Source: Acidobacteriota bacterium
GTDB lineage: Bacteria > Acidobacteriota > Thermoanaerobaculia > Multivoradales > JAHEKO01
Reading direction: 5' to 3'
NCBI GenBank assembly: GCA_029861655.1
Contig: JAOTZA010000001.1
Span: 1-35,514, forward strand
DNA: 35,514 nucleotides
Part shown: positions 1 to 2,212 of the stretch, one piece after another
Layout: each line of letters begins with the position of its first letter
How positions within the stretch are numbered: the stretch's first letter is position 1
Made by a program: the position numbers and the translations under genes
Notes under the pieces: model-generated
What the model saw: the letters and a program-made list of their open reading frames with translations, nothing else
The model's database searches: none
Told to the model about the DNA's origin: nothing

Positions 1-1170
1 CGGGGCTGGGCCATCCGGGCGACCGGCCCGAGATCGTCCTTGTTCTTTTCCGGAACCGGCGCTCCAACGACCCGCGGACCGTGGCCCGAGCCCGATGGAT
101 TCCCGATATCGTTGCCGTCACCCTCGCCTCCGTCTGTCTGGAAGCCGCCACCCGGTCTGGAGACGCCGCTTGTCGTCGAGAGCGAGGCGATGGAGCTCTT
201 GGACGTTTGTGCTCGAGAGCTCGACAAAGAGCTCCCCGGTTGCCGTGTCGTACGAGCCGTGCTCGAAGATGGGGCGAGCAATGTCGAGATCGCCAACTCC
301 CGCGGTGTGGAAGCGAGTTACCGTGGCAGGGTCGCGACCCTCTTTCTGTCGGTGGTGGATTCGGAGCCGGCACGAAGGCCGCTCTCGGAGCTCTTTTGCG
401 CACGCGAGCCGCGGAGGTTTCACCCGCGGGCGCTGGTCCGCCGTCTTGTGGATCGGTTGATCTTGGAGCGAGAAGGACGTCGCATAGAGAGGGACCGAGG
501 GGAAGTTCTGCTGGCTCCAGTGGTGGGAGCTCGGATCCTGGCGGGCCTACGGCCGCTCCTGATGGGAGCCGACTCCTCGGCCCTGGTCCGTGTCTTGACG
601 GATCGCAGCGGCCGGCTGGCCGCCCCCGGTGTGACGGTCATCGATGACGCGGGTTTGAGCGCGGGTTTGTTCAGCGCGCCCGCGGATGGCGAGGGTGTGC
701 CGACAAGGAGGCTCGTGCTCGTCGAGGAAGGGATCTACCGGAGACCGTTGCGGGCCTGGTTCGAGGAGGAGTCGGATAGCGCACCGGCGCGCCCGACCGG
801 CTGTTTGCGACGGCCCGGCTGGCGGGACCTACCGCGGCTCGGCCCCTCTCATCTCTTCTTCGAGCCGGAGCCGTCGAAACGCGCCGCCTCTCTTCTCGGG
901 GATCTCACCCGGGGGTACTACCTGACCGACGTCCTCGAACCGGGTCGATTCGATATCGAAGGAAACCGTTTTCGGTTGCCGGTCTGCGGATTCGAGGTGC
1001 GATCGGCCAAACCGGTCACCCGCGTTTCGCGGGCCGTCTTGTCGGGTCGCTTGAGTGCGGTGCTCCAGGGAGTCCGGGGAGTCGGCCGCGATCTGACTTT
1101 CTTTTCGCTGGGTTCGATGATCGGTTCGCCGAGTCTTTTGGTCTCGGGAATCGAGCTCGACGACGCTTGA
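1..1170 (+). CDS. PmbA/TldD-family metalloprotease-like protein (5' end probably outside window)
   Basis: The frame of the listed ORF 40..1170 stays open back to base 1. The C-terminal region (GYYLTDVLEPGRFDIEGNRFRLPVCGFEV...SGRLSAVLQGV...IGSPSLLVSGIEL) has the typical PmbA/TldD C-terminal pattern. About 389 codons are in the window, against roughly 440-480 aa for the family. Confidence 0.7.
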   Translation, partial: RGWAIRATGPRSSLFFSGTGAPTTRGPWPEPDGFPISLPSPSPPSVWKPPPGLETPLVVESEAMELLDVCARELDKELPGCRVVRAVLEDGASNVEIANSRGVEASYRGRVATLFLSVVDSEPARRPLSELFCAREPRRFHPRALVRRLVDRLILEREGRRIERDRGEVLLAPVVGARILAGLRPLLMGADSSALVRVLTDRSGRLAAPGVTVIDDAGLSAGLFSAPADGEGVPTRRLVLVEEGIYRRPLRAWFEEESDSAPARPTGCLRRPGWRDLPRLGPSHLFFEPEPSKRAASLLGDLTRGYYLTDVLEPGRFDIEGNRFRLPVCGFEVRSAKPVTRVSRAVLSGRLSAVLQGVRGVGRDLTFFSLGSMIGSPSLLVSGIELDDA

Positions 1171-1175
1171 TCGCC

Positions 1176-1470
1176 GAGATCGCCCGCCATCTCGGGCCGG
1201 TACTCGCCCCTCGTTCCTCGACATACTGGAAGTATGCCTCCGTCGCTCGGCGCTGCGCCCGGCCCGATCTAGCAGACGCTTTCGACGATCGACTCGGAAC
1301 CCAGCCAAGAGCGCCCGCCATCTCGGACCGGTACTCGCCCCTCGTTCCTCGACATACTAGAAGTATGCCTCCGTCGCTCGTCGCTGTGCCCGGTCCGATC
1401 TAGTAGGCGCTTTCGACGATCAACTCGGAATCCAGCCGAGATCGCCCGTCACTTCGGACCGCTGCTCGCC
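1176..1470. repeat. Intergenic tandem repeat, about 2.25 copies of a ~130-bp unit (1176-1308, 1309-1437, partial 1438-~1470)
   Basis: Direct reading gives copies 1 and 2 about 92% identical (9 substitutions and two 2-nt indels). Each copy has a 9-bp outer stem (TCGGGCCGG 1192-1200 / CCGGCCCGA 1259-1267; TCGGACCGG 1323-1331 / CCGGTCCGA 1390-1398). Each also has an inner palindrome CATACT-N3-AGTATG. The repeat lies between the convergent stops at 1170 and 1472, and no consistent reading frame runs across the copies. Confidence 0.85.
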
Positions 1471-1471
1471 G

Positions 1472-2212
1472 CTAGCCGTCGTCGGCGTCTGCGCGCTGTT
1501 TCTTGCTCTCTCTCTTTTCTCTGCGGGCGTCTCGTCGCATTTGCGCGGCGGTCTTTTGGGTCTCTTCGGTCGAGGCTTCGGTCCCAATCATGGCCTGGAC
1601 AACTCTTGCCCGGTTCGCGTAGATCCGCGGCGCCAACTCGGCAGCCGGCAAGTCGGAATAGGCCTTGAGTACGGCCTGGGGCGCGAGGTCGTTGTCGAGG
1701 ATATGGGGGTTGAACGCGGGGTCTGTCAGCCGCGGCTCGAGCCGAACTGCGTTTGCGTAGTGCTTGACCGCCGAGTTGCGGTTGCCCGTGTCCGCGTAGG
1801 CGACACCCAGGTGGTAGTGAGACCAGGCATGATCCGGGCTCGTCTTGAGCACCTGCTTGAGCGTGCGCTTCGACTTGTTGGTTTGCCCGGTCTCCTGTTG
1901 CAGCAGGGCCAGGTTATACCGTGCCGACACTGCGTCCGGCTCGAGCTCCAGGCTCCGCCGGTAGGCTTCTTCGGCTTCTTCCGGCAGGCCGGCGAGCACC
2001 AGCAGATTGGCGAGGTCGTTCCACAAGCCGGGTCGATGCGGTCGCTGTTCCACCAGCTCGCGTTGCGCGACCAGAGCTCTCTGGACATCTGCTGGAATCG
2101 CAGCGCCACTCGGCGACGGCAGGAGGGCCAGTAAAAGACAACCGGCCAGCGCTGTCGGCAGCACACGGGGCAGTGTCTTTGCGGTACCTGGTTTTTTGGC
2201 GGTGGTGATCAT
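1472..2212 (-). CDS. Secreted TPR-repeat protein
   Basis: The start is placed at ATG 2212 (MITTAKKPGTAKTLPRVLPTALAGCLLLALLPSPSGAA, signal-peptide-like), which forms an ATGA overlap with the stop of the upstream gene at 2209. It has TPR-like repeats (AEEAYRRSLELEPD..., WSHYHLGVAYADTGNRNSAVKHYANAVRLEP) and a highly charged K/R/E/D tail. Confidence 0.75.
   Translation of the reverse strand: MITTAKKPGTAKTLPRVLPTALAGCLLLALLPSPSGAAIPADVQRALVAQRELVEQRPHRPGLWNDLANLLVLAGLPEEAEEAYRRSLELEPDAVSARYNLALLQQETGQTNKSKRTLKQVLKTSPDHAWSHYHLGVAYADTGNRNSAVKHYANAVRLEPRLTDPAFNPHILDNDLAPQAVLKAYSDLPAAELAPRIYANRARVVQAMIGTEASTEETQKTAAQMRRDARREKRESKKQRADADDG

What the first reader, a model, noticed from the sequence alone, without database searches (positions are those of the whole stretch)
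1171..1471. Tandemly duplicated ~130-bp structured element between convergent genes, with a compensatory base-pair change
The whole 300-bp convergent intergenic region is built from 2.25 head-to-tail copies of one unit (1176-1308, 1309-1437, 1438-~1470).

Each full copy can form a 9-bp GC-rich stem enclosing about 58 nt, and the two copies differ at exactly paired positions. Copy 1 has TCGGGCCGG (1192-1200) paired with CCGGCCCGA (1259-1267). Copy 2 has TCGGACCGG (1323-1331) paired with CCGGTCCGA (1390-1398). So G1196:C1263 becomes A1327:T1394, and pairing is preserved.

Inside the stem is a 6+6 palindrome, CATACT-GGA-AGTATG (copy 1) and CATACT-AGA-AGTATG (copy 2), where the only change is in the loop or spacer. 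This pattern is expected for a selected RNA or DNA structure, such as an sRNA, a 3'-UTR element, a REP/MITE-like unit, or a protein-binding palindrome. It is not expected for a neutral duplication. With only 9 substitutions in total, one covarying pair is suggestive but not proof. No frame is conserved across the copies, so a peptide is unlikely.
Basis: seen in the sequence. Interest (0 to 1): 0.6.

Follow-up and report, generated by a model that had tools for sequence, protein, structure and literature searches.

The report
Tandem relic of hairpin mini-transposon
The 300-base repeat between the two genes is a locally amplified, worn copy of a small non-coding jumping element that is widespread in Acidobacteriota and some other phyla. 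It is an ordinary kind of element, but it carries an unusually well-conserved hairpin that folds on one strand only, and the role of that hairpin is unknown.

Summary
**Observation.** It holds. Positions 1173-1470 are 2.3 head-to-tail copies of a 131-bp unit. The G1196:C1263 to A1327:T1394 compensatory change is real.

**Structure.**
- The 9-bp stem is only part of a roughly 124-nt rod-like hairpin.
- Across 34 copies from 30 genomes, 93.9% of cells pair, and 29 of 35 pairs show double changes.
- The fold belongs to the window's minus strand: 162 G.U cells against 22 A.C cells, plus conserved tandem G.A loops.

**It is not locus-specific.**
- There are about 9 copies in this genome.
- Copies occur in 28 of 36 genomes of the same family.
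- Copies also occur in MAGs (metagenome-assembled genomes) labelled Desulfuromonadales, Thermodesulfobacteriota and Binatia.
- The sister species has only 13 nt at this site.

**What complete members look like.**
- They are 175-176 bp.
- Their 17-18-bp inverted ends are those of an IS1380-family insertion sequence found in a relative.
- They are flanked by 4-bp duplications of CTAG, often a gene's TAG stop codon.

[quoted passage not shown] The window's copies have lost the transposase-binding ends and were amplified locally, so they are probably immobile relics. Orientation is random with respect to neighbouring genes, which argues against a host 3'-UTR or small-RNA role.

**Earlier work.** This scan has found CTAG-targeting MITEs of this kind before on other genomes.

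The parts
1173..1470 (.). Tandem array of 2.3 units of 131 bp (1173-1303, 1304-1434, 1435-1471). It is an insertion relative to the sister species.
   Evidence: TRF and alignment of the units. In G001 the orthologous site has 13 nt between the two stop codons.
1173..1296 (-). Hairpin core, copy 1. A 124-nt rod-like fold-back read on the minus strand.
   Evidence: Covariance model match of 131.6 bits. The minus strand folds at -62.5 kcal/mol (z = -2.5) and the plus strand at -44.2 kcal/mol (z = -0.3).
1304..1427 (-). Hairpin core, copy 2.
   Evidence: Covariance model match of 126 bits. It differs from copy 1 at 11 positions. One pair of changes is compensatory (1196/1263), and two single changes keep pairing on the minus strand.
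1435..1471 (-). Partial third unit, covering only one arm of the hairpin. It ends at CTAG.
   Evidence: Alignment A1 and sequence reading.
1192..1200 (.). It is one helix of the rod (alignment A6 columns 31-37 with 107-113).
   Evidence: These pairs covary across the family; for example, columns 35/109 show GC 20, CG 7, UG 3, GU 2, AU 1.
1259..1267 (.). Right arm of that stem.
1222..1236 (.). Apical hairpin CATACT-GGA-AGTATG.
   Evidence: The helix covaries in the family (A-U to G-C in 14 of 34 copies; C-G to U-A).
1189..1192 (-). One side of the conserved 2x2 loop. It reads AGAU on the minus strand and faces 1267-1270. This is inferred to be a tandem G.A pair.
   Evidence: The four letters on each side are 92-100% conserved in 90 distinct copies. 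On the plus strand the same positions would be C.U/U.C mismatches.
1267..1270 (-). Other side of the AGAU/AGAU loop.
1168..1170 (+). TGA stop codon of the PmbA/TldD-family gene, 2 nt before the array. The base of the palindrome (TGATC...GATCG) reaches into it.
1472..1475 (.). CTAG at the right edge of the array. Its TAG, read on the minus strand, is the stop codon of the TPR gene. CTAG is the family's target site.

Best explanation
**What it is.** The 300-bp block is an insertion made of 2.3 tandem copies of the hairpin core of a palindromic miniature transposon (MITE) family.

**Shown for the family.**
- Complete members are 175-176 bp.
- They end in 17-18-bp inverted repeats, CC(C/T)G(C/G)ATTATTCATGAG. 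These are the ends of an IS1380-family insertion sequence.
- They are flanked by 4-bp duplications of CTAG (YTAR), a rare tetranucleotide that is often the TAG stop of the neighbouring gene.

**Inferred mechanism.** The IS1380 transposase moves these elements in trans.

**Inferred for the window.** The window's copies have lost those ends. They were multiplied in place by slippage or unequal exchange, so they are most likely immobile relics.

**Shown for the core.** The core is a rod-like fold-back with 35-37 Watson-Crick or G.U pairs. These are interrupted by three to four conserved 2x2 purine loops, read here as tandem G.A pairs. The structure is kept by compensatory change across three phyla and is much better on one strand, the window's minus strand.

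**Inferred role of the core.** Selection acts on a single-stranded form of the element and at the level of the element's own spread, not for the benefit of the flanking genes. My preferred mechanism is a fold-back of one DNA strand that brings the two ends together as a transposase substrate. An RNA role is the main alternative. Neither has been tested.
For: **Dispersed family.**
- Six strong and about four weak or partial copies in the window's own genome.
- Matches in 38 of 61 relatives, including 28 of 36 genomes of the same family, with up to 30 copies per genome. Many sit at contig ends.

**It is an insertion.** The sister genome G001 has 13 nt between the same two genes.

**Link to an insertion sequence.**
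- In G025, two 1633-bp insertion sequences encode an IS1380-family transposase (NF033539, 378 bits; PF13701).
- They are bounded by CTAG|CCTGGATAATTCACGAG ... CCTCATGAATAATGCAGG|CTAG.
- These are the same ends as the long-form elements.

**Target duplication.**
- Of 66 distinct long-form copies, 24 have CTAG on both sides.
- Non-palindromic direct repeats also occur: CTAA/CTAA three times, TTAG/TTAG once, ATAG/ATAG once.

**Structure.**
- 93.9% paired cells, 29 of 35 pairs with double changes, 0 of 500 shuffles reaching the observed values.
- Orthologous copies within one genus differ by four double compensatory changes.

**Strand specificity.**
- 162 G.U cells against 22 A.C cells.
- 17 columns with recurrent G.U against 2 with recurrent A.C.
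- The minus-sense strand is more stable in 85 of 88 copies.

**No tie to host transcription.** Co-directional contexts split 41 against 39 for the two orientations. Convergent contexts number 50 and divergent 20, as expected for insertion at stop codons.

**Cross-phylum spread with the same ends**.

**Arrays arise locally.** Tandem arrays recur elsewhere (7 units in G018; 2 units at several loci) and their units are not separated by CTAG.
Against: - The window's own copies have no IS1380-type ends and only one CTAG edge. Their membership therefore rests on the core.
- No IS1380 transposase was found in this genome (86% complete), nor in G001, G017 or G030, although G017 and G030 hold 25 and 28 copies. 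Only 8 of 41 genomes of the family have one, and only the G025 copies share the ends.
- Short forms without recognisable conserved ends are numerous in some genera, for example G027. A DDE transposase that reads terminal repeats does not explain them.
- A DDE transposase has no known need for a strand-specific internal hairpin, so the proposed role of the core is conjecture.
- No transcript data could be obtained.
Confidence: 0.78

Rival explanations
1. The unit is a structured RNA that serves the host, either a small RNA gene family or a 3'-UTR element. Under this reading it stabilises or insulates the neighbouring convergent transcripts, and the hairpin is selected for that role.
For: - Covariation is very strong.
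- G.U pairs make up about 14% of cells, which is typical of structured RNAs.
- The purine-rich internal loops are conserved.
- In the window, the structured strand is the sense strand downstream of the TPR gene.
Against: - Orientation relative to neighbouring genes is random, 41 against 39.
- No conserved promoter or terminator is evident in the copies read.
- There is no Rfam match.
- The element is absent at the orthologous site in the sister species.
- Family members carry transposon ends and target duplications.
- The distribution across phyla is patchy.
Confidence: 0.1
2. The hairpin core itself is the mobile unit. It is recognised as folded single-stranded DNA by a hairpin-reading enzyme, such as a RAYT-like HUH tyrosine transposase or a tyrosine recombinase, and is cut at the CTAG tag, as REP/REPIN elements are. 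The IS1380-type ends are a later addition on one subfamily.
For: - The structure is strand-specific and has conserved non-canonical loops.
- Short forms have variable, still palindromic tips bounded by TAG/CTAG and no conserved terminal repeat, yet reach about 15 copies in G027.
- Y1 transposase genes (PF01797) are present in G000, G001, G017, G030 and G033.
- There is a possible replication-strand bias: the structured strand lies on the leading-strand template in 17 of 21 copies.
Against: - None of 10 Y1-transposase loci has a copy within about 1.5 kb.
- G028 has 10 copies and no PF01797 hit, though it is only 81% complete.
- The tag is CTAG, not GTAG or CGTC.
- Non-palindromic 4-bp direct repeats flank long forms, which is the signature of a DDE-type staggered cut.
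- The strand bias rests on dnaA as a proxy for the replication origin and on non-independent copies.
Confidence: 0.1
3. The block is a neutral local duplication whose apparent structure is a coincidence.
For: Within the window alone there is only one compensatory pair among 11 substitutions.
Against: The family-wide covariation, the dispersed copies and the cross-phylum conservation all contradict this reading.
Confidence: 0.01

Closest known systems
MITEs derived from IS1380-family insertion sequences. This scan noted such elements on other genomes (e1-3521266, e1-982507). I found none described in the papers I searched.
   Same: - Small and non-coding.
- 17-18-bp terminal inverted repeats identical to those of an IS1380-family insertion sequence.
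- 4-bp target duplication at CTAG/YTAR.
- Multi-copy and intergenic, often lying on a TAG stop codon.
   Different: - The window's copies lack the terminal repeats and are tandemly amplified.
- The interior is not derived from the insertion sequence. It is a separate, strongly conserved, strand-specific hairpin.
Long palindromic intergenic repeats of proteobacteria: ERIC/IRU (about 127 bp) and Correia/NEMIS elements of Neisseria (from my own knowledge and the review PMC10969869).
   Same: - Imperfect palindromes of 100-180 bp in intergenic space, in either orientation.
- They fold into long hairpins when transcribed.
- The number of copies varies between relatives.
   Different: - There is no sequence relation.
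- The target is CTAG, not TA.
- Here the structure is clearly better on one strand, and its conserved letters lie in purine-purine loops.
REP/BIME/REPIN elements with RAYT tyrosine transposases, including the 'GTAG- and CGTC-tagged palindromic repeats' of PMC3733652.
   Same: - Hairpin-forming extragenic repeats marked by a tetranucleotide.
- They form tandem clusters.
- Compensatory changes keep the hairpin.
- The active form is single-stranded.
   Different: - The tag is CTAG.
- The unit is 124 nt or longer, not 20-40 nt.
- Resident RAYT-like genes are not flanked by the element.
- One subfamily carries ends typical of a DDE transposon.
BrickBuilt MITE of Porphyromonas gingivalis (PMC4596501; title and abstract only).
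   Same: It is a MITE that contains a tandem repeat array (a minisatellite).
   Different: - It comes from a different organism and has no sequence relation to this family.
- There the minisatellite lies inside an intact MITE, whereas here the whole hairpin core is the repeated unit and the MITE ends are missing.

Membership tests
MITE mobilised by an IS1380-family transposase | Terminal inverted repeats shared with an autonomous insertion sequence. | tested here: inconclusive
   - Met for the family: long forms share 17-18 nt with the G025 IS1380 copies.
- Not met for the window's own copies, which lack these ends.
MITE mobilised by an IS1380-family transposase | Short direct target-site duplication. 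| tested here: met
   - 24 of 66 long forms have CTAG on both sides.
- Non-palindromic direct repeats CTAA/CTAA (three times), TTAG/TTAG and ATAG/ATAG point to a 4-bp duplication.
- The window array has CTAG at one edge only.
MITE mobilised by an IS1380-family transposase | Small, non-coding, multi-copy and dispersed. | tested here: met
   - The core is 124 nt and the full element 175-176 nt.
- Single-base indels between copies exclude a reading frame.
- There are about 9 copies in G000 and up to 30 in relatives.
MITE mobilised by an IS1380-family transposase | Presence/absence polymorphism at orthologous sites. | tested here: met
   G001 has 13 nt where the window has 301 nt.
MITE mobilised by an IS1380-family transposase | A matching transposase available in the same genome. 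| tested here: not met
   No PF13701 hit in G000 (86% complete), G001, G017 or G030. This is compatible with relic copies or with insertion sequences lost from MAG assemblies.
MITE mobilised by an IS1380-family transposase | Demonstrated mobilisation by that transposase. | not testable with these tools
   This needs a mobilisation assay.
REP/REPIN with RAYT | The RAYT (Y1 transposase) gene is flanked by its cognate repeats. | tested here: not met
   Ten PF01797 loci in G000, G001, G017, G030 and G033 have no covariance-model match within the fetched flanks.
REP/REPIN with RAYT | A GTAG or CGTC tag next to a 20-40-nt palindrome. | tested here: not met
   The boundaries are CTAG/TAG and the unit is 124 nt or longer.
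Any curated RNA family (Rfam 15) | A covariance-model match. | tested here: not met
   Only chance-level matches (E above 4) on the window copies and on a long-form copy.
Integron attC sites | RYYYAAC/GTTRRRY core sites, arrangement in cassette arrays, and an adjacent integrase. | tested here: not met
   No such core sites are seen in the consensus. The copies sit singly between ordinary genes. An integrase was not searched for.

The most novel reading that the evidence does not exclude
The conserved 124-nt core may be a functional single-stranded module in its own right, not a passive filler. Its features are a rod with regularly placed tandem G.A loops, a fold on one strand only, and conservation across at least three phyla. 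One possibility is that it is the recognition substrate of a hairpin-reading enzyme that moves 'CTAG-tagged' elements lacking terminal repeats, which would be a new REP-like superfamily. Another is that it is an RNA carried by the transposon, with a role in the element's spread or in its tolerance by the host.
Probability: 0.2. Interest if true: 0.65.

Novelty: new member of a known kind. Interest (0 to 1): 0.38.

Why it matters
**For annotation.**
- This block should not be called a regulatory RNA of the pmbA-like or TPR genes.
- The family explains many contig breaks and many 'structured' intergenic regions in Thermoanaerobaculia genomes assembled from metagenomes.
- It also explains some altered gene ends.

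**For biology.**
- The family offers 300 or more copies in 38 of 61 sampled relatives, and further copies in other phyla.
- Across these copies a transposon's interior, not only its ends, is under clear structural selection on one strand.
- That makes an old question testable: do fold-back MITEs move as single-stranded hairpins, or do they act as RNA?

Tried and rejected
**Rfam.** Searches on the window region and on a long-form copy gave nothing.

**Partner transposases tested and rejected.**
- RAYT / IS200-like genes exist but are not next to copies.
- IS630 (DDE_3), which I suspected from the CTAG/TA target, is absent from G017, G030, G033 and G011. The two G013 copies do not share the ends.

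**Solo ends.** Solo terminal repeats in G017 were examined as possible ends of a larger element. They lie next to ordinary genes (Mur ligase, deacetylase, VWD) and are remnants.

**Core inside the insertion sequence.** It is not there.

**Gene calling.** A simple GC3-based gene caller failed on this genome. I replaced it with a self-trained codon model. Stop codons are exact but start positions are approximate.

**Second empty site.** The comparison for the C315 copy was too diverged to read at base resolution.

**Replication-strand bias.** The count of 17 against 4 rests on dnaA as a proxy for the origin and on few, related copies. I treat it as unresolved.

**Orientation relative to genes.** The first sample leaned one way (27:17) and the second the other (14:22). 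I conclude there is no bias.

**Literature.** Three searches found no description of this family.

Full report
**1. The observation**

The sequence is as described.
- Tandem Repeats Finder reports one array at 1173-1470: period 131, 2.3 copies, 89% matches, no indels.
- The three units align without gaps.
- The two 9-bp stems, the G1196:C1263 to A1327:T1394 change and the CATACT-NGA-AGTATG palindromes are at the stated coordinates.
- Copies 1 and 2 differ at 11 positions, not 9.
- The array fills the gap between a PmbA/TldD-family gene on the + strand (stop TGA at 1168-1170) and a TPR gene on the - strand (stop at 1472-1474).

**2. The structure is larger than reported and sits on the other strand**

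nhmmer found diverged copies elsewhere in the same genome: C315, C451, C181, C281, and a half copy on C48.

RNAalifold on six own-genome copies shows that the whole unit is one long imperfect hairpin.
- Read on the window's + strand the consensus fold is -23.7 kcal/mol with 34 pairs.
- Read on the - strand it is -50.4 kcal/mol with 37 pairs.
- Copy 1 alone folds at -44.2 kcal/mol (z = -0.3) on the + strand and at -62.5 kcal/mol (z = -2.5) on the - strand.

I then aligned 34 copies from 30 genomes with MAFFT, so the alignment was not fitted to any structure.
- RNAalifold predicts 35 pairs, and 29 of them show double changes.
- 93.9% of cells are standard pairs. Shuffles give 73.2% and slid partners give 27-44%.
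- 214 cells carry double changes, against 65 in shuffles.
- No shuffle out of 500 reached the observed value on any measure.

**3. Strand specificity**

In that alignment, and counting on the window's minus strand:
- 162 cells are G.U and 22 are A.C.
- 17 pair columns have three or more G.U, and 2 have three or more A.C.
- On the opposite strand the paired fraction would therefore fall to about 82%. This figure is derived.
- The minus-sense strand is the more stable one in 85 of 88 copies with RNA parameters (mean -58.9 against -46.0 kcal/mol), and in 84 of 88 copies with DNA parameters.

The consensus of 90 distinct copies shows that the letters conserved at 90% or more are not in the helices, which covary freely. 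They lie in small symmetric loops: AGAU facing AGAU, CG(C)AG facing CGAG, and nGAG facing CGAn.
- I read these as tandem G.A pairs closed by Watson-Crick pairs.
- This is an inference from the sequence, not a measurement.
- On the other strand the same positions would be pyrimidine-pyrimidine mismatches.

A simple deamination bias on an exposed strand would predict the opposite asymmetry. I therefore take the asymmetry as selection on a single-stranded form of minus-sense polarity.

**4. It is a dispersed element and an insertion at this site**

A covariance model built on the minus-sense alignment gives these results.
- Six strong copies plus a few weak ones in the window's genome.
- Matches in 38 of 61 relatives, including 28 of 36 genomes of the same family, with up to 30 per genome. 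Many matches lie at contig ends.
- The sister genome G001 has the same two genes with only 13 nt between their stop codons (TAA CGAACGGCCCTTC TCA), against 301 nt in the window.

**5. Ends, target site and the partner insertion sequence**

Reading the flanks of about 80 copies showed that many carry extra outer arms.
- In the window's + orientation they begin CTAG|CCCGCATTATTCATGAG... and end ...CTCATGAATAATGCGGG|CTAG.
- The terminal TAG is very often the stop codon of the neighbouring gene, at either end.

Notes from this scan on other genomes suggested IS1380-type ends for CTAG-targeting MITEs, so I tested that here.
- PF13701 transposases occur in 8 of 41 genomes of the family.
- In G025, two 1633-bp insertion sequences are bounded by CTAG|CCTGGATAATTCACGAG ... 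CCTCATGAATAATGCAGG|CTAG.
- Their 447-aa product matches the NCBIfam IS1380-family transposase model at 378 bits, against a cut-off of 180.
- Beyond the 17-18-nt ends, the insertion sequence and the small element are unrelated. No IS1380 locus contains the hairpin core.

Among 66 distinct long-form copies:
- The distance between tips is 175-176 bp.
- 24 have CTAG on both sides.
- The non-palindromic direct repeats CTAA/CTAA (three times), TTAG/TTAG and ATAG/ATAG show a 4-bp duplication of YTAR.

CTAG is four-fold under-represented in this genome: 2789 observed against about 11,555 expected. That helps explain why stop codons are frequent landing sites.

**6. The window's own copies**

- They belong by sequence to the long-form subfamily. 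Their closest relative is C315, at 82% identity.
- They lack the IS1380-type ends. The genome holds only one copy with recognisable ends (C315) and no IS1380 transposase, in an 86%-complete assembly.
- The right edge of the array is a CTAG, which is also the TPR gene's stop codon. The left edge is 2 nt after the TGA of the pmbA-like gene.
- Tandem arrays of the core recur in other lineages: seven 135-nt units in G018, and two units at loci in G027 and G011. Their units are not separated by CTAG.
- I infer that the arrays arise by local amplification and not by repeated insertion.
- I therefore read the window array as a decayed, locally amplified and probably immobile relic.

**7. Not tied to host transcription**

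I trained a codon-usage gene caller on this genome. Stop codons are exact; start positions are approximate. I applied it to two samples.

| Sample | Copies | Plus-sense vs minus-sense, co-directional contexts |
|---|---|---|
| First | 83 | 27 vs 17 |
| Second (other genomes) | 118 | 14 vs 22 |
| Pooled | 201 | 41 vs 39 |

- Convergent gene pairs (50) outnumber divergent ones (20). This fits insertion at stop codons or selection against promoter regions.
- The lack of orientation bias argues against a cis role of the minus-sense hairpin in host mRNAs.
- Using dnaA as a proxy for the origin in five nearly closed genomes, the structured strand lies on the leading-strand template in 17 of 21 copies. 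The sample is small and not independent, so I leave this open.

**8. Range**

- The covariance model confirmed copies, at 49-106 bits, in MAGs labelled Thermoanaerobaculia/Acidobacteriota, Candidatus Multivoradales (the record of G001), Desulfuromonadales, Thermodesulfobacteriota, Deltaproteobacteria and Candidatus Binatia.
- Eleven single hits in other phyla had no model match and are chance.
- The copies outside Acidobacteriota carry the same IS1380-type ends.
- Labels on MAG records are not always reliable. Even so, the GC content of the Desulfuromonadales copies (0.54-0.59, against 0.65-0.72 for most others) points to genuinely different hosts.

**9. What remains unexplained**

- Short forms whose tips vary in sequence but are still palindromic, bounded by TAG/CTAG, are numerous in some genera, for example G027. 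A transposase that reads terminal repeats does not explain them.
- Three orthologous copies within one genus differ by four double compensatory changes. The possible causes are selection in place, replacement by another family member, or arm-to-arm template switching.
- Resident Y1 (RAYT-like) transposase genes are not flanked by the element.
- The purpose of the strand-specific core is therefore open. My preferred reading is a single-stranded fold-back that juxtaposes the two ends for transposition. An RNA role is the main alternative.

**10. Comparison with what is known, and verdict**

- No Rfam family matches.
- Three literature searches found no description of this family.
- In kind it is a MITE, comparable to ERIC and Correia elements in form and to REPINs in its hairpin logic.
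- This scan has already reported CTAG-targeting MITEs with IS1380-type ends, and an 'unknown conserved hairpin core', on other genomes.
  - the partner insertion sequence;
  - the 4-bp duplication;
  - the full rod structure with its conserved purine loops;
  - the strand asymmetry;
  - the lack of orientation bias;
  - the cross-phylum range.
- Verdict: a real feature, a new member of a known kind, and of moderate interest.

Noticed in passing
L002 (G000:C315) about 1466-1655; the start codon is near L002 1648: The one long-form copy in this genome sits just upstream of a membrane-protein gene. The gene's apparent ATG lies inside the element's terminal repeat (GTGAGTGATGCAGGCTAAAG). The G001 ortholog has a different N-terminus, so the insertion may have supplied a new start codon.
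   Followed up: partly
L080 (G018:C1:3221030-3221950): An array of seven near-identical 135-nt units of the same hairpin core. The interior units have a chimeric 3' arm, and only the last unit has the normal arm.
   Followed up: partly
L050, L054, L105 (G034, G018, G027; one genus): Copies lie at the same gene end (a protein ending ...FWFGPRF*) in three species. The palindrome reaches into the last codons and the stop codon of that gene. The three copies differ by four double compensatory changes.
   Followed up: partly
whole genome G000: CTAG is four-fold under-represented: 2789 observed against about 11,555 expected at 62.8% GC.
   Followed up: no
G000:C230:1781-2110 (-) and G000:C199:1400-1717 (-): Two Y1 (IS200/RAYT-like, PF01797) transposase genes in open frames of 295 and 256 aa. 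Their own flanking repeats were not examined.
   Followed up: no
G001, G018, G025, G011, G015 (positions): With dnaA as a proxy for the origin, the structured strand of the element lies on the leading-strand template in 17 of 21 copies. This is the opposite of what is known for IS200/IS605-type single-strand transposons.
   Followed up: partly
L133-L138 (G017): Solo 45-nt ends of the long-form element, without the core, lie next to ordinary genes. These look like deletion remnants.
   Followed up: yes
L003 (G000:C48:2780-2860): A half copy, consisting of one arm only, abuts the stop codon of a convergent gene on the other strand.
   Followed up: no
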